A DNA stretch of 64,000 nt from Escherichia coli (GTDB lineage Bacteria > Pseudomonadota > Gammaproteobacteria > Enterobacterales > Enterobacteriaceae): NCBI RefSeq assembly GCF_003334305.1, contig NZ_QOWS01000012.1; one strand, written 5' to 3'. The notes under the pieces were generated by a model that searched no databases, had not been told where the DNA came from, and saw nothing but the letters and a program-made list of their open reading frames with translations. Shown here piece by piece: positions 196 through 44,165 of the stretch. The translations under genes were made by a program, and so were the position numbers. How positions within the stretch are numbered: the stretch's first letter is position 1; every line of letters begins with the position of its first letter.

Positions 196-1209
196 ATGCG
201 TGTACTGGGTATTGAAACTTCCTGCGATGAAACCGGCATCGCCATTTACGACGATGAAAAAGGTTTGTTAGCCAACCAATTGTATAGTCAGGTGAAATTG
301 CACGCTGACTACGGCGGCGTCGTGCCTGAACTGGCCTCCCGCGATCACGTGCGCAAAACCGTACCGTTGATCCAGGCGGCGCTAAAGGAGTCTGGCTTAA
401 CGGCAAAAGACATTGATGCTGTGGCCTATACCGCAGGCCCTGGATTAGTCGGCGCACTGCTGGTTGGCGCAACCGTGGGGCGTTCTCTGGCGTTTGCCTG
501 GAACGTTCCGGCAATCCCGGTACACCATATGGAAGGGCATCTGTTAGCGCCGATGCTGGAAGATAACCCGCCGGAATTTCCGTTTGTCGCGCTGCTGGTG
601 TCCGGCGGTCATACGCAGTTAATCAGCGTGACTGGCATTGGTCAGTACGAGCTGCTCGGCGAGTCTATCGATGATGCCGCCGGTGAAGCGTTTGATAAAA
701 CCGCGAAGCTGCTGGGGCTGGATTATCCTGGCGGACCGTTACTGTCGAAAATGGCGGCTCAGGGTACTGCCGGGCGCTTTGTTTTCCCGCGTCCGATGAC
801 CGACCGTCCGGGGCTGGATTTCAGCTTCTCCGGTCTGAAAACCTTCGCGGCAAATACCATTCGTGACAACGGCACCGACGACCAGACGCGTGCTGATATC
901 GCCCGCGCCTTTGAAGATGCGGTGGTCGATACGCTGATGATTAAGTGCAAGCGAGCGTTGGATCAGACTGGCTTTAAGCGACTGGTCATGGCAGGCGGCG
1001 TGAGTGCTAACCGTACGTTACGGGCGAAGCTGGCTGAAATGATGAAAAAACGCCGCGGCGAAGTGTTCTACGCGCGTCCGGAGTTTTGTACTGATAACGG
1101 CGCGATGATCGCCTATGCCGGAATGGTGCGGTTTAAAGCAGGCGCGACGGCGGATCTCGGCGTTAGCGTGCGTCCGCGCTGGCCGCTGGCGGAGTTACCG
1201 GCCGCGTAA
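196..1209 (+). CDS. tsaD: tRNA N6-adenosine threonylcarbamoyltransferase TsaD (Kae1/YgjD family)
   Basis: 337-aa ORF; N-terminus [20 protein letters not shown] and HMEGH motif typical of TsaD. Confidence 0.95.
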
Positions 1210-1217
1210 AACTATCG

Positions 1218-1243
1218 GGTGCCGGAGAGCAATTTCCGGCACC
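1218..1243 (-). terminator. Intrinsic terminator hairpin between convergent tsaD and ttdT
   Basis: Perfect 9-bp stem ggtgccgga/tccggcacc with 8-nt loop; U-rich tract follows on minus strand. Confidence 0.55.
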
Positions 1244-1251
1244 GTCCTTAC

Positions 1252-2715
1252 TTAAAGCAACACCACGGGCATCCACAGTAAGCCGGTAATCACCAGCAAT
1301 ACGAGGAATATCAGCCCAAAAATCGCCCCCAGTCGCCAGTAATCCGCCGTTGGCAGATAACCACTACCGTAGTAAATCGGACTGGGTCCGGTGGCGTATG
1401 GTGTAAGAATGCTCCCCAGACCAATTGCCGCGCCAACCATCAGGCAGAACACCGGCAGCGGGATTTCCGGCATCGCCAGCGCAGCGGCAATCATCATCGG
1501 TGCGAGGGCGGAGGTATACGCCGTGGCGCTGGCGAAAAAGTAGCGCAGCAGATAAAACACCACAATCAACGCCACCATCACCATCGTTGGCGAATAACCG
1601 CTTAAGCTGCCTGCTAACAGTTTGCCAAACCAGCTAATAAAACCGGTGTTGTTGAGTCCGGTAGCGAGGGTGATAAGCGAGGCCAGCCAGAAGAAAACGT
1701 TCCACGCCGCTTTATTACTGACAATGTCGTCCCAACTGATAATGCGCAGAAGCAGCATCAGTGCCACCACGCTGTAACCGACCATCGCGGCATCGATATA
1801 ATCACCGCCGAAAATCCACAGCACCAGCGCGCCTACCATCAGCCCCAGCATCCGTTTTTCACGCGAACAGAGCGGGCCCATTGCCTGCAGTTCCGTCTCT
1901 GCCCAGCGCGGCACCTGATCGCCAGACTTCAGTACCGGCGGGTACAGCACATAAGCCAGCCAGGGAACCAGCAGCACCAGCAAAATACTGAGCGGCAACA
2001 TCCCGAGGAACCAGTCGCCCCAACTCAGCGTGGCGTGAGATGCGCTTTTCATCAGTCCAATTAACAGCAAGTTTGGTGCCATCGCCGTCAAGAAAATGGC
2101 GCTGGTCACGCAGTCGGCAACAATCCCCATCCACATGATGTACGAGCCAATGCTGCGCGAACTGCTGTCGTTTGGTTGTGATTGATAGAGCGGTGGCAGG
2201 TTACGGATGATGGGATAGATAATCCCCGCACCACGCGCCGAGTTGGACGGTGTTACAGGTGCGAGGATCAGCTCGGAGAACATCACCGCATAGCCGAGAA
2301 ACAGCGTGCGATGTCCCATCTTTTTCACCAGAATCAGCGCAATGCGGCGTCCAAGCCCGGTTTTTTCATAGCCTGTGCCAAACATAAAGGCGGCGAAAAT
2401 CAGCCAGATAACCGAATTAGAAAAACCGGAAACCGCCCACGAGAGGGATTTTGCAGTGAATTTAAAGCCTGGCTGGGCGAGCTGTTCGGGGCTGAACAGC
2501 AGCCAGGGAGAGAGTATGGCGATGATGGAGATACCCACCATCGCCACCACGGCACCCGGCACGGGTTCGAGGATCAGTCCAACGATCACGCCAGTAAAAA
2601 CGGCAAAGTAGAGCCAGGTATGGTTCTCCAGCCCTGCGGGAACCGGAAGTAGAGCAATAATGGCGATGACCGCCAGCGGCGCAAGATATCGCCACCATTC
2701 AGTGGAAGGTTTCAT
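1252..2715 (-). CDS. ttdT: L-tartrate/succinate antiporter (DASS family)
   Basis: 487-aa polytopic membrane ORF; position next to ttdAB. Confidence 0.9.
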   Translation of the reverse strand: MKPSTEWWRYLAPLAVIAIIALLPVPAGLENHTWLYFAVFTGVIVGLILEPVPGAVVAMVGISIIAILSPWLLFSPEQLAQPGFKFTAKSLSWAVSGFSNSVIWLIFAAFMFGTGYEKTGLGRRIALILVKKMGHRTLFLGYAVMFSELILAPVTPSNSARGAGIIYPIIRNLPPLYQSQPNDSSSRSIGSYIMWMGIVADCVTSAIFLTAMAPNLLLIGLMKSASHATLSWGDWFLGMLPLSILLVLLVPWLAYVLYPPVLKSGDQVPRWAETELQAMGPLCSREKRMLGLMVGALVLWIFGGDYIDAAMVGYSVVALMLLLRIISWDDIVSNKAAWNVFFWLASLITLATGLNNTGFISWFGKLLAGSLSGYSPTMVMVALIVVFYLLRYFFASATAYTSALAPMMIAAALAMPEIPLPVFCLMVGAAIGLGSILTPYATGPSPIYYGSGYLPTADYWRLGAIFGLIFLVLLVITGLLWMPVVLL

Positions 2716-2762
2716 CGTGTTATGCCTGCGAAAAAGGAGAGGGGTGAGCCTCTCCGGGAGGG

Positions 2763-3368
2763 TTATTTGATGTAATGGACGTGCTCGCAGATCTCTTCCA
2801 CGATGGGATCGCGGCGTTCGGCGAACAGCTTTTTGTTTTCGGCTATCAGGTTGTTGCCGTGGGTATCAATAGAGACAATCAGCGGGCCGAACTCTTTGAC
2901 CCGGCAGACCCACAGTGACTCCGGCATCCCGAGTTCTGTCCAGTGCACTTCTTCAATCTCTTCTACCTGGGTTGCCGCCAGCACCGCGCAGCCTGCCGGG
3001 AAAATCACATGTAGCGCCTTGAATTTCTGGCAGCCTTCTTCGGTCAGCGGCCCCATACCACCTTTGCCAACCACCAGTTTCACGCCGGTCTGCTCAATAA
3101 ATTCACGTTCAAAACTTTCCATACGCATACTGGTTGTCGGGCCGACGGAGACCATCTCCCATTTGTCGCCGTTTTTGCGCACGATGGGGCCAGCGTGGAA
3201 AATCGCTTTGCCGTTGAGATCGTAAGGGATCGGACGTTTCAGTTCGATCAAGCGGCGGTGACAAACGTCACGGCAGGTCACCAGCGTACCGGTCAGGTAG
3301 ATCACATCGCCGACGCGAATATCTTGCAGATCTTCAGCTTTGATCGGGGTTGTCAGGATCTTTTTCAT
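2763..3368 (-). CDS. ttdB: L(+)-tartrate dehydratase beta subunit
   Basis: 201-aa ORF, fumarase class I C-terminal-like; overlaps ttdA stop. Confidence 0.9.
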
Positions 3369-31469: not shown

Positions 31470-32099
31470 ATGCTTAAGCCAGACAACCTGCCCGTTACAT
31501 TTGGCAAAAACGATGTAGAAATTATTGCACGAGAAACACTTTATCGCGGCTTTTTTTCATTAGATCTTTATAGATTTCGTCATCGTTTATTCAACGGGCA
31601 AATGAGTCATGAGGTACGGAGGGAAATTTTTGAGCGCGGTCACGCCGCAGTCTTGCTACCCTTTGACCCAGTGCGTGATGAAGTTGTGCTGATTGAGCAG
31701 ATTCGGATTGCCGCATACGACACCAGTGAAACCCCCTGGCTACTGGAGATGGTTGCCGGGATGATAGAAGAGGGTGAAAGTGTGGAAGATGTTGCCCGTC
31801 GCGAAGCGATTGAAGAGGCGGGACTGATAGTCAAACGGACCAAACCGGTGTTAAGTTTCCTGGCAAGCCCGGGGGGCACCAGTGAGCGTTCGTCAATTAT
31901 GGTGGGCGAAGTGGACGCCACGACCGCAAGCGGTATTCATGGTCTGGCTGATGAAAACGAAGATATTCGCGTTCATGTGGTAAGCCGGGAACAGGCATAC
32001 CAGTGGGTAGAAGAGGGGAAAATCGACAACGCAGCGTCGGTCATCGCTTTGCAATGGCTGCAGCTGCATCATCAAGCGTTAAAAAATGAGTGGGCATAA
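31470..32099 (+). CDS. nudF: ADP-ribose pyrophosphatase (Nudix)
   Basis: 209-aa ORF with Nudix box region EAIEEAGL. Confidence 0.9.
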
Positions 32100-32522
32100 A
32101 TGAAGCGTTACACACCTGACTTTCCTGAAATGATGCGCCTGTGCGAGATGAACTTTTCACAATTGCGCCGTTTGTTACCGCGCAATGACGCACCCGGCGA
32201 AACTGTAAGCTATCAGGTGGCAAACGCACAATATCGGCTGACGATTGTGGAATCGACCCGATACACTACCCTGGTGACAATAGAACAGACTGCGCCCGCG
32301 ATCAGTTACTGGAGCCTTCCGTCAATGACGGTGCGTCTGTATCATGACGCGATGGTGGCTGAAGTGTGTTCAAGCCAGCAGATTTTTCGCTTCAAAGCGC
32401 GGTATGATTATCCTAATAAAAAGTTGCATCAACGCGACGAAAAGCATCAAATTAACCAGTTTTTAGCGGACTGGTTGCGATACTGTTTAGCACATGGAGC
32501 GATGGCGATTCCGGTTTACTAG
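32100..32522 (+). CDS. yqiB: DUF1249 protein
   Basis: 140-aa ORF starting one nucleotide after the nudF stop; synteny. Confidence 0.85.
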
Positions 32523-32546
32523 CGTCGTGAAACCTAAGGACACCAT

Positions 32547-33374
32547 TTGGAAAGCCTGTTAACCCTTCCTCTGGCTGGTGAGGCCAGAGTCAGGATTTTA
32601 CAAATTACCGATACTCACCTGTTTGCACAAAAGCACGAAGCCCTGTTAGGGGTAAACACCTGGGAAAGCTACCAGGCGGTGCTGGAGGCGATTCGTCCAC
32701 ATCAGCACGAATTCGACCTGATTGTCGCGACAGGTGATTTAGCGCAGGATCAATCCTCTGCGGCCTATCAGCATTTCGCTGAAGGCATCGCAAGTTTTCG
32801 TGCGCCCTGCGTCTGGCTGCCGGGCAACCACGATTTCCAGCCCGCGATGTACAGCGCGTTACAGGATGCGGGTATCTCCCCGGCGAAGCGCGTGTTTATT
32901 GGTGAGCAATGGCAAATCCTGTTGCTGGATAGCCAGGTGTTTGGCGTGCCGCACGGTGAGCTGAGCGAGTTTCAGCTTGAGTGGCTGGAACGTAAACTGG
33001 CCGATGCGCCAGAACGCCATACGTTGCTGCTGCTGCATCATCATCCGCTACCTGCGGGTTGTAGTTGGCTTGATCAACACAGCCTGCGTAACGCGGGCGA
33101 ACTGGATACCGTGCTGGCGAAGTTTCCGCACGTCAAATACTTGCTGTGCGGTCATATTCATCAGGAGCTGGATCTCGACTGGAACGGTCGCCGCCTGCTG
33201 GCAACGCCGTCGACCTGTGTGCAGTTTAAGCCGCACTGTTCCAACTTTACGCTGGACACCATCGCGCCCGGCTGGCGTACTCTCGAGTTACATGCTGATG
33301 GCACGCTGACCACCGAGGTGCATCGCCTGGCGGACACACGTTTCCAACCTGATACCGCTTCAGAAGGCTACTGA
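32547..33374 (+). CDS. cpdA: 3',5'-cyclic AMP phosphodiesterase
   Basis: 275-aa ORF with metallophosphoesterase motifs (GDLAQD, GNHD); only in-frame start is TTG at 32547. Confidence 0.9.
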
Positions 33375-33955
33375 TGTCTACGCTTCTTTATTTACACGGT
33401 TTCAACAGCTCGCCGCGCTCTGCAAAAGCGAGCTTGTTAAAAAACTGGCTGGCGGAACATCACCCTGACGTTGAGATGATCATTCCGCAGTTGCCGCCGT
33501 ATCCTTCCGACGCGGCAGAGCTGCTGGAATCCATTGTCCTGGAACATGGCGGCGATTCGCTGGGTATTGTCGGTTCGTCACTGGGGGGATATTACGCCAC
33601 CTGGTTGTCACAATGTTTTATGCTGCCCGCAGTGGTGGTAAACCCGGCGGTGCGCCCGTTTGAACTGCTGACGGACTATCTCGGTCAGAACGAGAACCCC
33701 TACACCGGGCAGCAATATGTGCTAGAGTCACGCCATATTTACGATCTCAAAGTCATGCAGATTGACCCGCTGGAAGCGCCGGATTTGATCTGGCTGCTGC
33801 AACAGACGGGAGATGAAGTGCTGGATTACCGCCAGGCGGTGGCGTACTACGCTTCCTGCCGCCAGACTGTCATAGAAGGCGGCAACCACGCATTCACGGG
33901 CTTCGAAGATTATTTCAACCCGATCGTCGATTTTCTTGGTCTGCACCATCTCTGA
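33374..33955 (+). CDS. yqiA: Alpha/beta-hydrolase esterase
   Basis: 193-aa ORF, start overlaps cpdA stop; GSSLGG nucleophile elbow. Confidence 0.9.
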
Positions 33956-33980
33956 CGATCAACTCGAATTGCTAACTTAA

Positions 33981-35876
<1,896 letters not shown>

Positions 35877-35885
35877 TAATCTTTA

Positions 35886-35915
35886 CCCGGCAAACATGTG
35901 TTTTGCCGGGTTGTC
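35886..35915. terminator. parE terminator hairpin at island boundary
   Basis: cccggcaaa/tttgccggg 9-bp stem immediately after parE stop. Confidence 0.6.
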
Positions 35916-35920
35916 GCTGA

Positions 35921-36790
35921 TTATTTTATTGGGCACAGTTTGTTACGATCTGGAAATAGTGTTGCCAGCGAACCAGCCAGAGTTTTCCAGTCCGTAGCCA
36001 TTTTTTCTGCTTGTGCAGTTGTTATTACTGCACCTTGTTGTTTAATAAGCTCATCCTCCACTCTGGTATAGTGAATAATGGTAAAATCCGTAGAGGACCA
36101 TTTATCCTTAGAGAACATCTTCGTCATCGCATGAATGTTTGCTTGCCCGTCATCGATAAAAACAATCGCGTCATATTTGTTCCCCATTTTATCCAGCATA
36201 TAATCGAGAATTACGCCTTTATCTTGCCCGGAAGAAAAAAATACCCCCTGGCTGTACAGCCATGACCGTTTGAGTTTCCCTTTTTCAAAGGGTGGCAAAG
36301 TATCCTCTTTCTTCCTGAGTGCGGAAGACGAAAAATCAATGCCGTTTCGCTTTAATTCCCGCAATGTCGGAAAGAGAGTATCCGGTGCACGGGATGTCAG
36401 AGCAAAAGCGGTATGCTTTTGTTGCCACTGTTTTAACATTGTCGGTAACTGTGGCTCGGTAAGCTGCATAGGGCTAAGTTCGTAAAGCATACTGATTGTA
36501 TTTTCATACAGGCAGGGAACTTTTTGCGAGTCATCCGGCTTTAAGGGCAATTTATCGGTTTACCATTGATACCAGATATCACCGCCAATGCGTGTGCCAC
36601 TCGTTAATAACGTATTATCAATGTCAAAAACCAATAATATCTTATCGGATGGATAGAGAGTTTCCTTTTCGGTGATAATTTTACTGACCGCACTATATTC
36701 GCCAGTAACTATATTTTTTACCTGTGCGTAAGATAAAGCTGGCAGAGCAGAGAGTATCATCCAGAGAATGATTTTAAATTTATTATTCAT
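35921..36790 (-). pseudogene. Secreted HAD-superfamily phosphatase-like gene interrupted by one in-frame TAA
   Basis: ORFs 36560-36790 (signal peptide, FDIDNTLL motif) and 35921-36550 (FIDDG motif) are in the same frame; TAA at 36562-36560. Confidence 0.55.
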
Positions 36791-36803
36791 TTTTTATTCC
36801 AGA

Positions 36804-37538
36804 TTAGAAAGTATAAGTCAGACCCCAGCGCCAGCGGATTTGGCGATTACTTGATGTTTTATCCACACCTTTATAATCCGCAATACTCATATAGGGTATC
36901 CACGATCCCATTTTGTACCCTACTTTAAATGATGCGGTATAGTTTTTATGGCCATCATTCCAGGTTAAATAACCATTATTGTAATAGACCAGGTTTAACT
37001 GATATTGGAAGTTGGTTTTTTGTGGTCGATAGTCGATCCACACATCGTAACGGCGGTTATTACGATCATCGTTGCCATAACCTTTGGATTTATCGGTAGC
37101 TTTATCCATGTCATAACGAAAACGACCCGAAACTTTCCATTCTTTGCTGAAATCATAACCCGCAGAAAGACCATATTCGTAAGTTGACCAATATTGCGTG
37201 GTATCAAGCCAGAACATGGGTTCTAACCAGAATTTTTTGTCATCCAGCGGCTTAAAGCGGTAAACAACAGATAATCCTGTTCCGTTATTGCCAAATTGTG
37301 AGGGGTCCCACTTATCTTTATCACCTTCATCGGTGTTATAGCGTAATTCTCCCATCAAACCGATACCATTACTAAAAAATGTACCAAATTCAACGCGGTC
37401 CGCGTGGGTGCGAGTATCATCAAGATACTCATGACGATAATCAATAAATCCATGCGGCTGTTCTGCACAGACTAGTGTAGGTGACAGGCAGGATAACATT
37501 GTTATTCCTGCAAGTGATATTTTAAGATAAGAATTCAT
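36804..37538 (-). CDS. Small outer-membrane beta-barrel porin, KdgM/NanC-like
   Basis: 244-aa ORF; signal peptide; alternating aromatic/polar strands; C-terminal TYTF with terminal Phe. Confidence 0.65.
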   Translation of the reverse strand: MNSYLKISLAGITMLSCLSPTLVCAEQPHGFIDYRHEYLDDTRTHADRVEFGTFFSNGIGLMGELRYNTDEGDKDKWDPSQFGNNGTGLSVVYRFKPLDDKKFWLEPMFWLDTTQYWSTYEYGLSAGYDFSKEWKVSGRFRYDMDKATDKSKGYGNDDRNNRRYDVWIDYRPQKTNFQYQLNLVYYNNGYLTWNDGHKNYTASFKVGYKMGSWIPYMSIADYKGVDKTSSNRQIRWRWGLTYTF

Positions 37539-37633
37539 AATATTCCCTTTCAGAATAAAATATATTTTTGGTGATCGAATACACCATCTGATGATTCCAG
37601 GTATTAGAATGTTTTTTTATCTATAGTTTGACT

Positions 37634-38758
37634 TTAAATTTTAAGTTTGTTTTCCTTATCAATGAATAGATAAAATTTCGTCTGTTGATGGGGCTGGAAA
37701 TTATTATCAGATACAAATATTAACGATGTATGCCCATCAATCAGAGGACCGAAGGTTACCCCTTCAATACAATCCGCAGAGGAAGTGTAATCAGCAAAAT
37801 CAATTAATAATTTTTTACTGACGGGTTGTAACGTGGATTTATTGGACCAATCTTGCAGACTGTCAATATCCTTGATATCGCTGGCAGCAGTTAAATCGAC
37901 CATATAAACTCTGACAGAGTAATCCCAGTCATTGAACCCAGCACTGACGTTTCTGCCGGAACGTTCGATGACCAACAATTGGTGATCATTCAGCGCCAGG
38001 ACCTCGGATACGCCATTATCATTAATACCGAACTTACTCACTTGCGGAACAGGATCAGTAATATAGAGATATTCATGCAATTGCTTTGAAGGTCGACCGT
38101 CTGCATCTATAGAAAATTGCAGTAAGCGTGATGTACCTGAATTTATTGGACTTGCAATAGGCCCATCCTGTTTAAGGCTGCTTTCAACGGCGATAAAAAG
38201 TGATTTTCCATCTGGTGTAACTGTCAGGCCCTCCCAGGCGTTGCCGCTGCGAATACCATTGCTGCTCTCTTTGTCAGAACTAATATTAAATCGAGCAGGA
38301 AATAAAGACGTAAAATCTTTCTCCATTACGCCATCGAGAGTGCTCAGACGCAGTGGAGCACCTAACTCCGAACTCCATAGTAATGACTTACCATTGTGTG
38401 TCAGGGCCAGACCTTCGGCATCCACCGTATTGGTCACGAAAGGCTGCTGTTTTGCATCAAGCAGTGGACGCTGGTTGAGAAAATTCACTTGCTCAATGCC
38501 CCTGGATGATACCTGTATTTTTAGTGTATAAAGACTGGCATCTCCTTCTTTATTATTGTTTCTGCTATCGTTAATAGCATAGAAAATATTTTTTTTTGCA
38601 TCAAATGTGATGGCTGATAGCCCCGCGATTGTAACATTGTTCTGTTTTTCTCCCGTCCGGAAGTTGAACTCACCAGCATAATGAAGAAAACTGTTTGCCT
38701 GCGCTGTTGTGCATAACAGCGGTAATGCCAGAAAAATAGCGGCATGTCTTATTTTCAT
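37634..38758 (-). CDS. Secreted protein, beta-propeller-like (phytase-like/esterase-like family guess), function unknown
   Basis: 374-aa ORF; signal peptide MKIRHAAIFLALPLLCTTAQA; repeated EGL..T.DGKSL blade-like motifs. Confidence 0.55.
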   Translation of the reverse strand: MKIRHAAIFLALPLLCTTAQANSFLHYAGEFNFRTGEKQNNVTIAGLSAITFDAKKNIFYAINDSRNNNKEGDASLYTLKIQVSSRGIEQVNFLNQRPLLDAKQQPFVTNTVDAEGLALTHNGKSLLWSSELGAPLRLSTLDGVMEKDFTSLFPARFNISSDKESSNGIRSGNAWEGLTVTPDGKSLFIAVESSLKQDGPIASPINSGTSRLLQFSIDADGRPSKQLHEYLYITDPVPQVSKFGINDNGVSEVLALNDHQLLVIERSGRNVSAGFNDWDYSVRVYMVDLTAASDIKDIDSLQDWSNKSTLQPVSKKLLIDFADYTSSADCIEGVTFGPLIDGHTSLIFVSDNNFQPHQQTKFYLFIDKENKLKI

Positions 38759-38787
38759 GATATTTACCTTTGTGTATGTATCTGATT

Positions 38788-39702
38788 TTAGTCGTGTTGT
38801 GAAAGAAAAAGATTAACTTCCGATGGTGTCGCCAGATGACCTCTGGCACCTAATGCAGTAATATTTATTGCTGCAGTGGCAGAAGCAAATTTTAGTGCTT
38901 CAATTAAGGGCATGTTTTTTATTAAGCTATAAACAAATGCACCATTAAAAGTATCTCCAGCGCCAGTGGTATCAATAATGGGAATTGTATAGCTACCTAT
39001 TTTTACTTGCTCATTGCCTTTGACTGCAATTACTCCCCTAACATCCAGCGTAACCACGACAGCCTCAAGTTGATACTCGTCTTGTATATCATGCAGAAGT
39101 GTAAAATCTGGCTCTGCTGCATAGCCACGAATAAAACCGTCATAATTAAATATCGCAATATCAGCAAGGTGTAAAATTCTGGCAAGGTGTTCAGGTGTTG
39201 CAATGATATGAGGCTCAATATCAACGACAACTTTTGTCATCTGGCTACGGGAATATTCGGCCAGCATACGAAATTTCTCGATATCTGCTGGCATCGTATA
39301 ATAATAACGGCTTTGCGCAATTGCCTGCAGGGCTTTTTCTTTATCCCACTCATGATCACTACCAGGCGAGTAAACCAACGTTTTTTCACCTAATTCATCA
39401 ATAAAGATAATCGCGGTATTGGCAATCAATTCCGGAATTACCTGAACGAAATCACAATTTACATGATATTTTTTAAATCCATCAAGAATGATCGAGGCTG
39501 AATGATCATTGCCCACACATGAAACAGATACCACATTGAGACCCAGTTGTCCCATCGCACAGGCACTGTTGGCGACTGTGCCGCCAGCTTGTTCACCCAG
39601 ACGTGTCCCGACCACTTTACCGCCACGAGTGGGGAGTGACGGGATAGATAAAAAAATATCTATATTTCCACTGCCTAAAGCGGCGACATCAAATTTCTTC
39701 AT
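38788..39702 (-). CDS. PfkB-family carbohydrate kinase (ribokinase-like)
   Basis: ORF track 322 aa; start placed at ATG 39702 (MKKFDVAALGSGNID) with AGGGAG SD; C-terminal DTTGAGDTF motif. Confidence 0.8.
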   Translation of the reverse strand: MKKFDVAALGSGNIDIFLSIPSLPTRGGKVVGTRLGEQAGGTVANSACAMGQLGLNVVSVSCVGNDHSASIILDGFKKYHVNCDFVQVIPELIANTAIIFIDELGEKTLVYSPGSDHEWDKEKALQAIAQSRYYYTMPADIEKFRMLAEYSRSQMTKVVVDIEPHIIATPEHLARILHLADIAIFNYDGFIRGYAAEPDFTLLHDIQDEYQLEAVVVTLDVRGVIAVKGNEQVKIGSYTIPIIDTTGAGDTFNGAFVYSLIKNMPLIEALKFASATAAINITALGARGHLATPSEVNLFLSQHD

Positions 39703-39706
39703 AGTC

Positions 39707-40705
39707 TTATTTCTCCCTATGGCTAACGCGTTGCCCGCCTGCGTCGACATAATCACAACTTAAATGCCAGCACATTTCATATAACCACTGCATGACCAGA
39801 AATAAATTGTTGGACTCACTGGCATCAGGTATAAAACTGATTAATTCTGCTGTCGCTCCCTGTTCAACAATTGCTTTTTGGGTTGCAATGTAAAATGGGT
39901 ACTCGCGGGATGTAGCTGGCAGTAAAAAATAATGCTGACCGACACCAGCCTGATGTAAGCGTAATGAATGATAAAATTCTTCCAGTGGAAAGGCTGTCGC
40001 ACGAATCTGTGGGCCGCAAGAAAGTAAATTGCTCCCCGATATTGCTAGTCCCCAACTTAAGCCACTCCCCAGAAACGTTATCTCTTTTTGTTGGTAAAAA
40101 TGGCGCTTCTTTTGCTGCCAGTGCTGATTAATCTGGCTAAATTTCCCTTCTAAATCCTCTTCAATTTGCAGTGGTGTTAAGCCTGGACATAAGTTTTGCG
40201 CTAAGCGCAGGAGGGTATAAAGTGTGACGCTACTACTTTGCGTTGGAATACCCTGCTTATTCGCCCATGTATAGAGCATGTTTTCTGTTATTGCGCAAAA
40301 TGGTGTTCCAGGGCAATTCGTCACACCCAGCACTTGCGCGTTTGAGCATACTGCGTGGCTAAGGGCGTCAACGGTCAGTGATGGTCTGCCACTTGCGCTG
40401 AGAATAATGATCAACGTTTCTTTCTGATAACGGGTTAAATCAGTCTGAAGAAAATCCCACGTTTGCAATGCGGAACAAAACAGATGTGTGTATTTCCCCA
40501 GCCAGGCGGCGGCACATAGTGCCACCGTCCAGGAGTCGCCCGATCCCACTATACAGACGCGTTCAACAGCACGTTTATCGAGCTGAACAGATGAAAAACA
40601 TTCACCCCAGATAGCTGCCAAATGGCGTAGCGCTGCCGCCGTTGCATTTATTTCCTCACGAGTTTGCGCTAATGGCATAACAGGAGCACGGGCTGGCATG
40701 TTCAT
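39707..40705 (-). CDS. Tandem SIS-domain phosphosugar isomerase/deglycase-like protein
   Basis: 332-aa ORF; two SIS-like segments (CIVGSGDSW, ITFLGSGLSWG); start overlaps upstream stop as TAATG. Confidence 0.7.
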   Translation of the reverse strand: MNMPARAPVMPLAQTREEINATAAALRHLAAIWGECFSSVQLDKRAVERVCIVGSGDSWTVALCAAAWLGKYTHLFCSALQTWDFLQTDLTRYQKETLIIILSASGRPSLTVDALSHAVCSNAQVLGVTNCPGTPFCAITENMLYTWANKQGIPTQSSSVTLYTLLRLAQNLCPGLTPLQIEEDLEGKFSQINQHWQQKKRHFYQQKEITFLGSGLSWGLAISGSNLLSCGPQIRATAFPLEEFYHSLRLHQAGVGQHYFLLPATSREYPFYIATQKAIVEQGATAELISFIPDASESNNLFLVMQWLYEMCWHLSCDYVDAGGQRVSHREK

Positions 40706-41781
40706 TATTTCTCCTGTGCCTGTACTGCAAGCAATGTCAGACCCGATGCGATCGCTTCAACATCGAAATCTTTATTATTTACGGCGCGGAAAAAGGCATA
40801 TTTATCTTCAGGGAGCGCATCAAAACCGCGCCATGCCCCTGCAATTGCGCCTGCCATCGTAGCGATGCTATCGGTGTCATTGCCAATATTGGCGCAGGCA
40901 TGGATGGTTTCCCAGGGTTCTCCTTTGCAGTACAGCAATAGACCGATTGCCGCAGGAATGGATTCATGGGCGGCAACAGAGTTACCAACCAAACCTTCCA
41001 TTTCTCGCAGACAAGACTCCAGATCATTGGCACGTCTGGCGATGTCCGCTGCAAGTTGGATGCGCATGGCGATAGATGGCCCTGCTACACATCGTGCATA
41101 TTGTTTGGCCAGGCGTTCGCCGTAATTCGCTCCCCAGATTGCGGCATCCAGTAATGATGTGAGCGAGGCTTCTGGTAACATAGCCTGCGATGTCGCTGCA
41201 GCGATGGCGCAAGCGCTGGCAATCGCAATATTGGTGTCATGTGAAGGTAGGCAAGTTATTAACGCCAGGCGACACGCTTTTTCTTTCTTGCCAGGCCAGA
41301 TCAATCCTGCCGGGGCTACACGCATTCCTGCGCCATTCGTGGTGCCGACATTGGGGGCCTGACGAGAAGATGTTCCAATACGCCCAATGGTGTTTGTTGG
41401 TCTACCTTCTTTTAGTGCCTTGACGATTTGTTCTGTTGTGGGGCCTTTATAATTTGCGTAGGGCTGCATATCGGCCCAACGCAGAAGACAAGCTAACCAG
41501 TCATTATTGGTGAAGTTATCAAATCCAGCCTCAATTAACCCTTCTGAAAACACATACATTTGGCTGGAATCGTCGGTGATAAGTCCTGCAACACCATTTA
41601 ATGAGCCAGCAAAGGTATCGGCAGGAGGAGAAACAAAGGCATTTAAAAAACCTCCCCATTGAGTTTTTATTTCATCAATGCTGTAGAGTTCAGTCGCTGC
41701 GCCTAATGCATCGCCCATACCTGCGCAGGCTAAAGAACCTAATATTTTGTTATAAATTACGGCTTGTTCTATTTTGTTCAC
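40705..41781 (-). CDS. ADP-ribosylglycohydrolase-family hydrolase
   Basis: 358-aa ORF (GTG start with GAGAG SD); GSLACAGMGDALGAATE near N-terminus and GNDTDSIA near C-terminus. Confidence 0.75.
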   Translation of the reverse strand: MNKIEQAVIYNKILGSLACAGMGDALGAATELYSIDEIKTQWGGFLNAFVSPPADTFAGSLNGVAGLITDDSSQMYVFSEGLIEAGFDNFTNNDWLACLLRWADMQPYANYKGPTTEQIVKALKEGRPTNTIGRIGTSSRQAPNVGTTNGAGMRVAPAGLIWPGKKEKACRLALITCLPSHDTNIAIASACAIAAATSQAMLPEASLTSLLDAAIWGANYGERLAKQYARCVAGPSIAMRIQLAADIARRANDLESCLREMEGLVGNSVAAHESIPAAIGLLLYCKGEPWETIHACANIGNDTDSIATMAGAIAGAWRGFDALPEDKYAFFRAVNNKDFDVEAIASGLTLLAVQAQEK

Positions 41782-41794
41782 AATATTCTCTCTG

Positions 41795-42547
41795 TTACAC
41801 GCTAAAACTGTCTTTTGTAATTCGTGCTTTGTAGGAGTACCGACTTGCGGGATAAACCATCTCTACATACTCCATTGGTTTACGTTCCACGGATAACGTG
41901 ACGCGGGTACAACTTAATACGACGTCATCGGCAGTCAGTTCCAGTAATTGACGCTCAAGGGGCGAGGGAAGCCGGGCAGAGATAATCTCCGTTGCTTCTA
42001 AAGGTTTAATAGCGAGTTTTTCTTCCAGTAAAATATAGAGCGAACCCGTCGCCAGCAGCTCTTCCAGAGTTATTTCTTGTCCGTCATTTAACGCAAGCCA
42101 TGATGTCTGAATACCCAGCGGCGTACTTCCCATATAGCGAATGCGTTTTATACAGAAAACGGTATGGACATGGATATCAAGTTCGAGATTTTTTCTGATA
42201 ATATCACTGAGAGGAATATAACCTATTTCAAGAATATTCTGTGCCGGTACGCCACCACGAGCCTTAATGTCATCAGTAAAACTATGTAATAAATGATTTT
42301 CCCGACTGCGAGCCGGTAATGTAAATGTTCCTTGCCCGTGGACACTATGCAGGTATCCGCGTTGTTTCAAACTTTCTATTGCTTTCCGAATTGTTGTTCT
42401 GCTGCTTAAAAAATGTTCAGCCAGTTCTCTTTCTGTTGGTATAGCTTTGCCTTCTTTCCATTCACCGTTATCAATTTTTTTCTTTATTTCATCAAAAATT
42501 TCACGATGCTTTAGCTGACCTTTACTGGCTTTATAAATTCTTATCAT
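41795..42547 (-). CDS. GntR/HutC-family transcriptional regulator with UTRA effector domain
   Basis: 250-aa ORF; winged-HTH ERELAEHFLSSRTTIRKAIESL at N-terminus; first gene of minus-strand array. Confidence 0.8.
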   Translation of the reverse strand: MIRIYKASKGQLKHREIFDEIKKKIDNGEWKEGKAIPTERELAEHFLSSRTTIRKAIESLKQRGYLHSVHGQGTFTLPARSRENHLLHSFTDDIKARGGVPAQNILEIGYIPLSDIIRKNLELDIHVHTVFCIKRIRYMGSTPLGIQTSWLALNDGQEITLEELLATGSLYILLEEKLAIKPLEATEIISARLPSPLERQLLELTADDVVLSCTRVTLSVERKPMEYVEMVYPASRYSYKARITKDSFSV

Positions 42548-42833
42548 GACAAAGCCTCATTTCAAGTGGTTGATACCAACTTTACATTCTTTTATTTTTA
42601 TTGCGCAGTATGCTTATTTGTTATCTGTGACATAAAACAGGAAAAACCACATTTATTAATAAATATCATGCGGTTAAGTGAAATTGGTTTTTATGTGATG
42701 CTGCTCAATATTAACTCAGTGGTTTGTTGTGGTATCTACCAATGCATTTATTCTCAATCGTAAAGTTATGTGCTGAATGAGTTCCGATACATTTGTTTTT
42801 AATATAATTTCATGTGATTAATGAGTGCTGTGT

Positions 42834-44165
42834 ATGAAACTGACAATAAATGAAAAGATAGGTTTTGGTGCCGGTGATATGGCCATTGCGATAGTAATGA
42901 TGTCTTTAGCCATGATCATCACTTATTTTTACACGGATGTATTTGGTCTGAAACCCGTCGACTTAGGTATTCTGTTATTTTCTGTACGTATTCTTGATGC
43001 TGTGATTGATCCAGTTGTGGGAACAATGACAGACATAACGAATACACGTTGGGGAAAATATCGGCCATGGTTGCTTTTTATGTCAATACCGTTTGGGATA
43101 AGCATTTGGTTGATGTTCACCACACCTGATACCGATTATTCAGTTAAGCTTTTATGGGCCTGGGCTACCTATGTGTTACTTACCTTGACCTATACGTTAA
43201 TCGCTATTCCTTATGTTTCATTAATCAGCGTTATCACGGATGATCCACAAGAGAGATTGAGCGCCAATGGTTATCGTTTTGTTATGACAAAAATTGCCAT
43301 GTTCGCCGTAACAATTATTGTTCCTTTATCTGCAATGTATCTTGGGAAGAATAACGTACAACTGGGTTATCAAATAGCAATGGGGACAATGGGTATTCTG
43401 GCAACGTGTTTATGCCTGTATTGTTTTTTTAGCGTGAGAGAGCGCATCTACCATCCAAAACCCAGTCTCGGTATGGCCGCGCAGTTTCGGTTACTGATCA
43501 AAAATGATCAATGGCTCATTTTGGGCGCTGTAATTGCGATCATTATGTTTGGCGGGATTATTCGTAACTCTGTCGCTGCATATTATGCAAAATATTACCT
43601 GAGTGGTGGGGATGCTTTAATTTCACCGTTTTTAACTTCAGGCGTGATCGCCTCAGTTCTGGCTATGATCGCTTGCACCTGGCTTACTCGTCTCTATGAC
43701 AAAATAAAAATATTTCGTTATACCCAATTACTGGCGTTCGTGGTGGGTGGTGCGATGTATTTCGTGCAACCAAATTCTATAGTGCTAGCTTTTACATTTT
43801 ATATTGTGGTGACTTTCCTGACGGATATCCAGCTTCCCATTTATTGGGCATCCATTGCTGAGTCCGTGGATTACGGTGAAATGAAAACGGGGCAACGTGT
43901 TTCTGGCCTGGCATTTGGCGGGATTCTCTTTTTCCAAAAGTTCGGTATGGGGCTGGCAGGGGGCTTTATCGGAATCGCTTTAGCCTATCTGGATTATCAA
44001 CCAGGCGTAGAACAAACACCACAGGCGCTGTGGGGGATCTGCCTGTTAATGACGATCATTCCCGCGATACTTAACCTGCTTACCGGACTCATCATGAGAT
44101 TTTATCTGATTAATAATGAATATTACGAACAGATAAAAGCACGGTTACAAACGGCGGAAGAGTGA
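42834..44165 (+). CDS. GPH-family (MelB-like) glycoside:cation symporter
   Basis: ORF from GTG 42825; ATG at 42834; 12-TM profile; D..G...D..TNTRWGKYRPW signature. Confidence 0.8.
   Translation: MKLTINEKIGFGAGDMAIAIVMMSLAMIITYFYTDVFGLKPVDLGILLFSVRILDAVIDPVVGTMTDITNTRWGKYRPWLLFMSIPFGISIWLMFTTPDTDYSVKLLWAWATYVLLTLTYTLIAIPYVSLISVITDDPQERLSANGYRFVMTKIAMFAVTIIVPLSAMYLGKNNVQLGYQIAMGTMGILATCLCLYCFFSVRERIYHPKPSLGMAAQFRLLIKNDQWLILGAVIAIIMFGGIIRNSVAAYYAKYYLSGGDALISPFLTSGVIASVLAMIACTWLTRLYDKIKIFRYTQLLAFVVGGAMYFVQPNSIVLAFTFYIVVTFLTDIQLPIYWASIAESVDYGEMKTGQRVSGLAFGGILFFQKFGMGLAGGFIGIALAYLDYQPGVEQTPQALWGICLLMTIIPAILNLLTGLIMRFYLINNEYYEQIKARLQTAEE

What the first reader, a model, noticed from the sequence alone, without database searches (positions are those of the whole stretch)
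36548..36562. In-frame TAA splits the island's secreted HAD-like gene
ORFs 36560-36790 and 35921-36550 are in the same reading frame on the minus strand and separated only by TAA at 36562-36560 (...GDIWYQW-TAA-TDKLPLKPDD...). Together they encode a ~289-aa signal-peptide HAD-like protein (DIDNT motif I upstream of the stop, FIDDG downstream). This is either a nonsense pseudogene, a single-base sequencing error, or a site needing suppression; it is TAA, not TGA, so selenocysteine is unlikely. A 76-aa signal-peptide fragment may still be made.
Basis: seen in the sequence. Interest (0 to 1): 0.45.

Follow-up and report, generated by a model that had tools for sequence, protein, structure and literature searches.

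The report
Recent nonsense mutation in DUF2608 gene
One C-to-T change has turned an invariant glutamine codon into a TAA stop in an accessory E. coli gene for an exported HAD-type phosphatase, making an ordinary strain-specific pseudogene that the public annotation already flags.

Summary
On the minus strand, TAA at 36562-36560 interrupts an otherwise intact 289-codon frame (36790-35921). With that codon repaired, the protein is a full-length Pfam DUF2608 protein (E 5.8e-60) with a Sec signal peptide and all four HAD motifs.

The window is 100% identical over 12.9 kb to E. coli strain A7 (NZ_CP028767.1). There, PGAP already calls this gene a pseudogene with an internal stop.

The ancestral codon is CAA (Gln77):
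- The nearest intact allele differs from A7 only at this base.
- Only 1 of the 408 complete E. coli genomes matched by a 61-nt stretch around the stop has the window's version of it.
- Gln77 is invariant in 30 homologues of 39-86% identity.

The same TAA appears in assemblies made from two other read sets, so an assembly error is unlikely. No complete E. coli genome carries a classical ochre-suppressor tRNA allele. Intact alleles show purifying selection (dN/dS about 0.04-0.18). A7 has no second lesion in the gene, so the loss is recent. Other strains inactivated the gene independently, through frameshifts, foreign tails or an IS1 deletion.

Verdict: an ordinary, recent loss-of-function nonsense pseudogene. 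It is not recoding and not two genes. Interest is low.

The parts
35921..36790 (-). Whole disrupted coding frame of the DUF2608 / HAD-like exported protein: 289 codons plus the terminal TAA at 35923-35921. It is the last gene of the ygiN-parE island and converges on parE.
   Evidence: Translation; Pfam DUF2608 E 5.8e-60 on the repaired protein; annotated as a pseudogene with 'internal stop' in the identical strain A7 record and as intact 289-aa WP_001060171.1 in strain WAT.
36560..36562 (-). Premature TAA at codon 77. The ancestral codon is CAA (Gln77), changed by a C-to-T transition at the first codon base (window position 36562, A on the + strand versus G in strain WAT).
   Evidence: Only 1 of 408 genomes has the window's version of the surrounding 61 nt. 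Gln77 is invariant in 30 homologues.
36563..36790 (-). 5' fragment of 76 codons: the signal peptide, then the start of the HAD core as far as ...GGDIWYQW.
   Evidence: Gene callers predict exactly this 76-aa product in other assemblies.
36725..36790 (-). Predicted Sec (signal peptidase I type) signal peptide, codons 1-22: MNNKFKIILWMILSALPALSYA, cleaved before QVKN.
   Evidence: Read from the sequence: Lys4 and Lys6, a hydrophobic core, then S-Y-A. The model has low pLDDT and an isolated helix at residues 5-14. Every homologue has an N-terminal hydrophobic leader, and several marine ones have a lipobox-like ...[AG]C. No signal-peptide predictor was run.
36611..36625 (-). HAD motif I, DIDNT (codons 56-60; Asp56 is the nucleophile and Asp58 the general acid/base), upstream of the stop.
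   Evidence: D56, I57, D58, N59 and T60 are invariant in alignment A1.
35921..36559 (-). 3' part (codons 78-289 plus stop), untranslated unless ribosomes restart. It holds HAD motif II (ALTSR, T132/S133), motif III (K191), motif IV (D213/D214) and the invariant Cys93 and Cys286. Possible restart codons are TTG at 36550 (209 aa) and ATG at codon 101 (189 aa).
   Evidence: Gene callers predict the 189-aa ORF in L003 and L004. Neither possible start has a Shine-Dalgarno-like sequence upstream (read).
36146..36160 (-). HAD motif IV, FIDDG (codons 211-215), downstream of the stop.
   Evidence: F211, D213 and D214 are invariant; coordinates read.
35885..35911 (.). 10-bp G+C-rich hairpin (CCCGGCAAAA/UUUGCCGGG region) in the 44-nt spacer between the gene's stop and the parE stop. 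Probably a shared terminator for the two convergent genes.
   Evidence: Fold gives -16.6 kcal/mol, z -4.4, with 0 of 200 shuffles folding as well. The simple terminator scan did not flag it because it lacks a long T run.
36804..37538 (-). Upstream neighbour in the same orientation: a KdgM-family outer-membrane porin, intact in this window.
   Evidence: PGAP calls it 'porin' (WP_001317336.1). Pfam KdgM hits the product in L003.
37634..38758 (-). Next gene upstream: a signal-peptide 'phytase-like esterase' family protein, intact.
   Evidence: PGAP annotation; Pfam Phytase-like PF13449.

Best explanation
This is a recent loss-of-function nonsense mutation confined to one strain or clone. A single C-to-T transition changed codon 77 of an accessory E. 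coli gene from CAA (Gln) to TAA. The intact gene encodes a Sec-exported, roughly 267-aa mature HAD-superfamily hydrolase of the uncharacterised DUF2608 family. By fold it is closest to class C / HAD-IIIB acid phosphatases, so it is most likely a periplasmic phosphomonoesterase. It is the last gene of an eight-gene island between ygiN and parE: MFS transporter, GntR regulator, ADP-ribosylglycohydrolase-family protein, SIS protein, PfkB kinase, phytase-like esterase, KdgM porin and DUF2608. In this strain ribosomes terminate after Trp76. The product is a signal peptide plus about 54 residues that contain motif I but none of motifs II-IV, so it cannot fold into a HAD core and is presumably exported and degraded. 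Any restart product (209 or 189 aa) would lack both the signal peptide and the Asp56/Asp58 catalytic pair, and so would be cytoplasmic and inactive. Nothing lies downstream in the operon, so no polar effect is expected. Shown here: the mutation, its direction, its rarity, the conservation of Gln77, the family and fold, and the presence of the TAA in other read sets. Inferred: phosphatase activity, periplasmic location, the fate of the fragments, and the role within the island.
For: - The TAA is in frame inside a 289-codon frame.
- The window is 100% identical to strain A7 over 12,921 bp, and PGAP marks the gene there as a pseudogene with an internal stop.
- Intact allele WP_001060171.1 in strain WAT differs in the gene only by C instead of T at codon 77.
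- Of the 408 complete genomes that matched the 61-nt query around the stop, only A7 has the window's version of it. All 59 other listed rows show a single mismatch.
- 225 homologues were found. The 120 listed are single proteins, nearly all of about 285-315 aa. Gln77 is invariant within a GGDIWYQWQ motif in 30 of them at 39-86% identity.
- Intact E. coli alleles differ from WAT at 3-7 synonymous but only 1-2 non-synonymous codons, over 186 synonymous and 681 non-synonymous sites. That gives dN/dS of about 0.04-0.18, so the gene is normally under purifying selection. A7 has no additional change, so the lesion is young.
- The TAA is present in Logan assemblies of runs SRR10357279 (6.2 kb, 100% identical) and SRR3951615 (3.5 kb, 100% identical). 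The 76-aa product is also on record from an NCBI contig of 139,848 bp.
- No tRNA-Gln, tRNA-Lys or tRNA-Tyr allele with a UUA anticodon exists in any of 5426 complete E. coli genomes, A7 included.
- The KdgM / DUF2608 / phytase-like / PfkB / SIS / GntR module is conserved in Klebsiella oxytoca.
Against: - I could not inspect reads directly. The two Logan runs might come from the same strain, or even be the reads behind the A7 assembly, so they rule out an assembly or consensus error more firmly than a mutation that arose in a laboratory stock.
- Whether any full-length protein is made by low-level readthrough was not measured.
- No DUF2608 protein has been characterised: no paper in the searched library mentions the name and sequence search found no solved structure. 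The phosphatase activity and periplasmic role therefore rest on motifs and fold.
- The suppressor test covers only the classical Gln, Lys and Tyr alleles in the K-12 tRNA backbones. A suppressor in tyrU or another backbone would look like a wild-type hit.
Confidence: 0.9

Rival explanations
1. Sequencing or assembly error: the real genome has CAA, and the T is a consensus artefact in the deposited assembly.
For: The difference is one base. Only one of the 408 matched complete genomes shows it. PGAP 'internal stop' pseudogenes are sometimes assembly errors (general knowledge).
Against: The identical TAA, in identical flanks, appears in assemblies built independently from the raw reads of two SRA runs (L003, L004). 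The 76-aa product is also recorded from an NCBI contig of 139,848 bp, which is not the 4.8-Mb finished chromosome. The change is a substitution outside any homopolymer, whereas long-read consensus errors are mostly homopolymer indels (general knowledge).
Confidence: 0.04
2. The TAA is decoded, either by a suppressor tRNA or by programmed readthrough, so a functional full-length enzyme is still made.
For: The stop is followed by A (TAA-A), which is not the strongest termination context (general knowledge). A tRNA-Gln ochre suppressor would restore the wild-type residue.
Against: No Gln, Lys or Tyr tRNA allele with a UUA anticodon is present in any of 5426 complete E. coli genomes, and the window has no tRNA gene. 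The stop is absent from the 407 other matched E. coli genomes and from all aligned homologues, so nothing suggests a selected recoding site. UAA is read by both release factors and is the least leaky stop in E. coli (general knowledge). Rfam found no RNA element near the site.
Confidence: 0.02
3. The lesion yields two working products: a small secreted 54-residue peptide and a cytoplasmic 189-209-aa protein made by restarting translation, either or both with a new function.
For: A TTG lies 12 nt after the stop, and an ATG at codon 101 opens a 189-aa ORF that gene callers predict.
Against: Homologues are never split. The C-terminal piece lacks the signal peptide and the invariant Asp56/Asp58 of motif I. 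The N-terminal piece lacks motifs II-IV. Neither restart codon has a Shine-Dalgarno-like sequence upstream. The allele is confined to one lineage and shows no sign of subsequent adaptation, with zero further changes.
Confidence: 0.02
4. The loss is adaptive rather than neutral: inactivating the exported enzyme is favoured in some hosts, and A7 is one of several convergent knock-outs.
For: Other E. coli carry independent lesions in the same gene. These include a frameshift after residue 110 (P0132, P0135), foreign tails after residues 100 and 101 (P0127, P0122) and a C-terminal frameshift (P0149), all with Gln77. Strain MB06173 lost nearly the whole island through an IS1-associated deletion. 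The island is present in only 409 of 5426 genomes.
Against: The intact alleles examined are under purifying selection, and 407 other matched genomes do not have this stop. Scattered lesions in an accessory gene are what drift alone produces. No phenotype data are available.
Confidence: 0.1

Closest known systems
Ordinary bacterial nonsense pseudogene (PGAP category 'internal stop')
   Same: A single premature stop in an otherwise full-length orthologue of intact genes in sister strains. It is already flagged as such in NZ_CP028767.1 (locus AOY58_RS19435).
   Different: Nothing differs in kind. It is unusually young: no second lesion, and only one nucleotide away from the intact allele.
Pfam DUF2608 (PF11019), an uncharacterised family placed by motifs and fold in the HAD superfamily
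   Same: The repaired protein matches 231 of 244 model positions at E 5.8e-60. It shares all invariant residues with 29 homologues from Klebsiella, Leclercia, Vibrio, Alteromonas, Paraglaciecola and others.
   Different: In this window the gene is interrupted at codon 77. The enterobacterial copies lie in a catabolic-looking island, whereas the marine homologues examined stand alone.
Class C acid phosphatases / HAD subfamily IIIB (H. influenzae e(P4), Pasteurella multocida and Bacillus anthracis class C enzymes; plant vegetative storage protein)
   Different: Sequence identity is only 12-17% and TM-scores are 0.36-0.45. The E. coli protein does not reach significance for PF03767 (E 1.6). Motif I is DIDNT rather than the class B/C DxDET signature (from memory of Thaller et al. 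1998). The GGDIWYQWQ segment and the invariant Cys93/Cys286 pair are specific to this family. The comparison says what it probably works like; it does not establish membership.
Programmed stop-codon readthrough or suppression (ochre suppressors supB, supC, supG/L)
   Same: Only that there is an in-frame UAA inside a conserved coding frame.
   Different: The stop is not conserved in any relative. No classical suppressor tRNA allele exists in any complete E. coli genome searched. No associated RNA element was found.

Membership tests
Nonsense pseudogene | A premature in-frame stop relative to intact orthologues, with an otherwise collinear sequence | tested here: met
   One substitution, CAA to TAA at codon 77, against the intact 289-aa allele of strain WAT, with no indels. 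PGAP labels it 'internal stop'.
Nonsense pseudogene | The stop is derived rather than ancestral, and is not shared by relatives | tested here: met
   Only 1 of 408 complete genomes has the window's version of the 61 nt around the stop. Gln is invariant in 30 homologues.
Nonsense pseudogene | The stop is real in the organism, not an artefact | tested here: inconclusive
   TAA is present in Logan assemblies of SRR10357279 and SRR3951615 and in an NCBI draft contig. Read pile-ups could not be inspected, and the identity of those samples is unknown (one search found no paper).
Pfam DUF2608 (PF11019) | A significant full-length match to the family HMM | tested here: met
   E 5.8e-60, score 203.3, residues 35-275 against model positions 8-238 of 244.
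HAD superfamily phosphohydrolase | Motif I DxDx[TV], with a nucleophile Asp and an acid/base Asp two residues later | tested here: met
   D56-I-D58-N-T60, all invariant.
HAD superfamily phosphohydrolase | Motif II Ser/Thr, motif III Lys/Arg, and motif IV acidic pair (DD or GDxxxD) | tested here: met
   T132/S133 (ALTSR), K191 and D213/D214 are invariant or nearly invariant. Assigning them to the motifs is by position and model, not by experiment.
HAD superfamily phosphohydrolase | Rossmann-like HAD core fold | tested here: met
HAD superfamily phosphohydrolase | Mg2+-dependent phosphoryl-transfer activity | not testable with these tools
   No biochemical data exist for any DUF2608 protein.
Class C acid phosphatase / HAD-IIIB (PF03767) | A significant match to the family profile and its DxDET...GDxxxD signature | tested here: not met
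   PF03767 E 1.6 over residues 32-64 only. The motifs here are DIDNT and FIDDG. The resemblance is structural only.
Programmed readthrough / recoding site | The stop codon is conserved at the same position among relatives | tested here: not met
   None of the 407 other matched E. coli genomes has the window's version of the site, and 0 of 30 diverse homologues has a stop there.
Programmed readthrough / recoding site | A cognate suppressor tRNA or a stimulatory RNA element | tested here: not met
   No Gln, Lys or Tyr allele with a UUA anticodon in 5426 genomes. No tRNA in the window. No Rfam element at the site. Only the classical suppressor backbones were tested.
Selenocysteine / pyrrolysine site | A UGA (Sec) or UAG (Pyl) codon | tested here: not met
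   The codon is UAA.

The most novel reading that the evidence does not exclude
Disruption of the DUF2608 gene is recurrent and selected for in E. coli. On this reading, the A7 nonsense allele, the independent frameshift and insertion alleles, and the IS1-associated island deletion are convergent losses of an exported phosphatase that is costly in some hosts. Strain A7 would then be a clean natural single-base knock-out, with every other island gene intact, for finding the substrate of an uncharacterised enterobacterial island (KdgM porin, DUF2608, phytase-like esterase, PfkB kinase, SIS protein, ADP-ribosylglycohydrolase-family protein). A still more exotic reading, functional readthrough of the TAA, is not strictly excluded, but I put it at no more than 0.02.
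Probability: 0.1. Interest if true: 0.3.

Novelty: already known. Interest (0 to 1): 0.07.

Why it matters
As a genome feature it matters little. It is one of many young pseudogenes in natural E. coli isolates, and the public RefSeq record already flags it.

It has two small practical uses:
- It gives an annotated example where the ancestral codon, the direction of the mutation and its independence from the finished assembly can all be shown. The gene should be treated as non-functional in this strain and should not be split into two 'hypothetical proteins'.
- DUF2608 is wholly uncharacterised, and this allele differs from the nearest intact allele (strain WAT) by one base while the rest of the island is intact. 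Strain A7 and a CAA revertant would therefore make a ready isogenic pair for finding what this exported HAD enzyme and its island act on.

Tried and rejected
- **Literature.** A search for 'PF11019' returned only Plasmodium gene identifiers. 'DUF2608' returned no paper. A first attempt at that search failed on a queue time-out.
- **Provenance of the read sets.** A search for SRR10357279, SRR3951615, CP028767 or GCF_022493755 returned no paper, so the read sets could not be traced.
- **Solved structures.** A sequence search of the PDB found nothing at E up to 1.
- **Protein families.** NCBIfam gave only sub-threshold HAD-IIIC and HAD-IA hits for the protein and nothing for the porin or the phytase-like neighbour.
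- **C-terminal fragment.** The exact look-up of the 209-aa TTG-start fragment found nothing. Gene callers use the ATG at codon 101 instead (189 aa).
- **Marine context.** The exact look-up of the Alteromonas homologue P0042 found nothing. Neighbourhoods of two other marine homologues showed no conserved context.
- **Contigs L005 and L006.** Their 76-aa 'hits' are contig-end truncations, not TAA alleles. L006 actually reads CA at the codon. I do not count them as support.
- **Terminator scan.** The simple promoter/terminator scan found fewer sites than its shuffled controls and missed the hairpin after the gene. I folded that hairpin separately.
- **Two separate genes.** Rejected because every homologue is a single protein.
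- **Selenocysteine or pyrrolysine.** Rejected because of the codon.
- **Classical ochre suppression.** Rejected.
- **One script failed.** One search stopped on a missing file and was rerun.

Full report
**1. The observation**

On the minus strand the window reads ...GGT GAT ATC TGG TAT CAA TGG TAA ACC GAT AAA TTG CCC TTA AAG CCG GAT GAC... The TAA occupies 36562-36560. ORF 36790-36560 (76 aa) and ORF 36550-35921 (209 aa from a TTG) share one frame. Translating 36790-35921 gives 289 codons with this single internal stop.

**2. Source of the sequence and existing annotation**

The 921 bp around the gene match 409 of 5426 complete E. coli genomes, always on the chromosome, and every listed full-length hit lies over a 'DUF2608 domain-containing protein'. 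One record, strain A7 (NZ_CP028767.1; orangutan faeces, USA), is 100% identical. Window 29880-42800 is identical to A7 at all 12,921 positions. Strain WAT differs from the window at only four positions in those 12.9 kb, and there the gene is an intact 289-aa protein, WP_001060171.1.

**3. The ancestral codon**

Within the gene, the only difference between the window and WAT is T versus C at the first base of codon 77. This is CAA (Gln) changed to TAA.

A 61-nt query centred on the stop matched 408 complete genomes. Only A7 was identical. The other 407 fell in the 95-99% identity band, and all 59 other listed rows showed exactly one mismatch.

Outside E. coli, a search of the large protein collection returned 225 homologues. 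The 120 listed are single proteins, nearly all of about 285-315 aa. In an alignment of 30 of them (39-86% identity to the E. coli protein), Gln77 is invariant and lies in a conserved GGDIWYQWQ segment just after HAD motif I.

The stop is derived.

**4. Is the stop real?**

I could not see reads. However, an exact-sequence look-up of the 76-aa fragment found it in assemblies built directly from the raw reads of other sequencing runs:
- L003 (SRR10357279, 6.2 kb) and L004 (SRR3951615, 3.5 kb) are 100% identical to the window and read TGG TAA ACC at the site.
- The cluster look-up also records the 76-aa product from an NCBI contig of 139,848 bp, which is not the finished A7 chromosome.
- Two other 'hits', L005 and L006, are contigs that simply end at the site. 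L006 reads CA there. They give no support.

The change is a substitution outside any homopolymer. An assembly or consensus error is therefore unlikely. What I cannot say is whether these read sets come from one strain stock or from several isolates, because no paper mentions the accessions.

**5. Suppression or recoding?**

The window has no tRNA gene. I took glnU, lysT and tyrT from K-12, changed each anticodon to TTA, and searched all complete E. coli genomes. No record reached 99% identity for any of the three. So no complete genome, A7 included, carries a classical supB, supG/L or supC-type allele. The limit of this test is that a suppressor in a different backbone, such as tyrU, would not stand out.

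The stop is not conserved in any relative, and Rfam finds nothing near it. From general knowledge, UAA is read by both release factors and is the least leaky stop codon in E. coli. Functional decoding is very unlikely.

**6. What the gene is when intact**

Sequence evidence:
- The repaired protein matches Pfam DUF2608 over residues 35-275 (E 5.8e-60). It has only marginal hits to generic HAD profiles and sub-threshold NCBIfam HAD-IIIC and HAD-IA hits.
- The invariant residues include D56, D58 and T60 (motif I), S133 and R134, with T132 nearly invariant (motif II region), K191 (motif III) and D213/D214 (motif IV). Two cysteines, C93 and C286, are also invariant and suggest a disulphide.
- The N-terminus, MNNKFKIILWMILSALPALSYA followed by Q, has the form of a signal peptidase I leader. 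Several marine homologues instead have a lipobox-like ...[AG]C.

Structural evidence:
- An AlphaFold2 model built on the alignment is confident (pLDDT 87.5, pTM 0.83).

No solved structure is detectable by sequence, and no paper in the library mentions DUF2608. I therefore read the intact protein as an exported, probably periplasmic, HAD-type phosphomonoesterase. It works like a class C / IIIB acid phosphatase, but it does not meet that family's profile (PF03767 E 1.6).

**7. Genomic context**

The gene is the last of an island inserted between ygiN and parE. In window coordinates the island is:

| Gene | Coordinates | Strand |
|---|---|---|
| MFS transporter | 42834-44165 | + |
| GntR regulator | 41795-42547 | - |
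| ADP-ribosylglycohydrolase-family protein | 40705-41781 | - |
| SIS-domain protein | 39707-40705 | - |
| PfkB kinase | 38788-39702 | - |
| Phytase-like esterase | 37634-38758 | - |
| KdgM-family porin | 36804-37538 | - |
| DUF2608 gene | 35921-36790 | - |

A 10-bp hairpin (35885-35911; -16.6 kcal/mol, z -4.4) sits between the gene's stop and the convergent parE stop. No gene lies downstream that polarity could affect. In A7 all other island genes are intact, and several encode the same protein accessions as in WAT.

In Klebsiella oxytoca the homologue (53% identity) lies in the same module, SIS, PfkB, phytase-like, GntR, KdgM and DUF2608, with an adenosine-deaminase-family gene in place of the ADP-ribosylglycohydrolase. 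In the two marine neighbourhoods examined, a metagenomic contig and Vibrio splendidus, the gene stands alone.

My inference, which is untested, is that the porin admits a phosphorylated substrate, the two exported hydrolases process it in the periplasm, and the MFS transporter, kinase, SIS protein and glycohydrolase deal with the product in the cytoplasm.

**8. Selection and age**

Three further intact alleles (strains Combat2C1, cq9 and APEC O2-211) differ from WAT at 3-7 synonymous and only 1-2 non-synonymous codons. With 186 synonymous and 681 non-synonymous sites, this gives dN/dS of roughly 0.04-0.18. The gene is therefore maintained by selection where it is present. The A7 allele carries no change other than the stop, so the inactivation is recent. 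A nonsense outcome is not surprising: 118 of 2601 possible single-base changes (4.5%) would create a stop.

**9. Consequences in this strain**

These consequences are inferred. Translation ends after Trp76. The product is a signal peptide plus about 54 residues. It carries motif I but none of motifs II-IV, so it cannot form the HAD core. It is presumably exported and degraded.

A restart at the TTG 12 nt downstream (209 aa) or at the ATG of codon 101 (189 aa) is conceivable. Neither codon has a Shine-Dalgarno-like sequence upstream. Either product would lack both the signal peptide and the Asp56/Asp58 catalytic pair. The strain should therefore be a functional null for this enzyme.

**10. Other lesions in the species**

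The protein clusters contain other truncated E. coli forms that are not contig-end partials:
- a frameshift after residue 110 (P0132, P0135);
- foreign tails after residues 100 and 101 (P0127, P0122);
- a C-terminal frameshift (P0149).

All of these keep Gln77. In strain MB06173, an IS1 element sits where GntR through most of the DUF2608 gene should be. Only a truncated MFS gene and the last 60-odd bases of this gene remain. The gene and the island thus decay repeatedly and by different routes, as expected for accessory DNA. Whether any of this is adaptive is open.

**11. Verdict**

This is a genuine, recent nonsense pseudogene (CAA to TAA at Gln77) of an accessory, exported DUF2608/HAD hydrolase gene, confined to one strain or clone. 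The RefSeq annotation of the identical genome already flags it. It is not two genes and not a recoding site, and it is very probably not an assembly error. Interest as a genomic finding is low. The only mildly useful point is that the strain offers a clean natural knock-out of an uncharacterised enzyme family.

Noticed in passing
window 35921-44165: An eight-gene accessory island lies between parE and ygiN: MFS transporter, GntR, ADP-ribosylglycohydrolase family, SIS, PfkB kinase, phytase-like esterase, KdgM porin and DUF2608. Its last gene, the DUF2608 gene, was found in only 409 of 5426 complete E. coli genomes. Its core (SIS, PfkB, phytase-like, GntR, KdgM, DUF2608) is conserved in Klebsiella oxytoca, where an adenosine-deaminase-family gene replaces the ADP-ribosylglycohydrolase (L011). 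The substrate is unknown.
   Followed up: partly
L020 (NZ_CM129884.1, strain MB06173) 1156-3105: In this seawater isolate an IS1A element sits between a 5'-truncated MFS gene and the last 60-odd bases of the DUF2608 gene. An IS1-associated deletion has evidently removed the rest of the island.
   Followed up: partly
proteins P0122, P0127, P0132, P0135, P0149 (other E. coli strains): These are independent disruptions of the same gene elsewhere in the species: a frameshift after residue 110, foreign tails after residues 100 and 101 (possibly insertions), and a C-terminal frameshift. All retain Gln77.
   Followed up: partly
L005 3226-3228 and L006 1059-1063 (Logan contigs from ERR7738272 and ERR10140813): Two assembled contigs end exactly at, or 2 nt past, the polymorphic base of codon 77. 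This may mean the samples hold both alleles, so that the assembly graph branches there, or it may be coincidence. L006 reads CA (the intact allele).
   Followed up: no
window 36761-36790 (L001 6011-6041): PGAP starts the A7 pseudogene at Met11 (locus 6041) but starts the intact WAT gene at Met1 (locus 6011). The start annotation is inconsistent for the same sequence. Met1 gives the more typical signal peptide, with Lys4 and Lys6 in the n-region.
   Followed up: no
alignment A1 (homologues of the protein): Cys93 and Cys286 are invariant across the family, suggesting a disulphide that ties the C-terminus to the cap region. Enterobacterial and Vibrio members have signal peptidase I type leaders. 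Many Alteromonas and Paraglaciecola members have lipobox-like ...[AG]C leaders, as class C acid phosphatase lipoproteins do.
   Followed up: no
window 35885-35911: A 10-bp G+C-rich hairpin (-16.6 kcal/mol, z -4.4) lies in the 44-nt spacer between the convergent DUF2608 gene and parE. It is probably a shared terminator, although the simple terminator scan did not call it.
   Followed up: partly
window 15445-15594 and 15821-15970 (+): Two tandem Sib antitoxin sRNA genes (Rfam RF00113, 142 and 148 bits). These would be type I toxin-antitoxin (ibs/sib) loci.
   Followed up: no
window 24663-24811 (+) and 58888-58951 (-): An FMN riboswitch (RF00050, 121 bits) and the ES173 sRNA (RF02753, 99 bits). 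Both are ordinary E. coli features.
   Followed up: no
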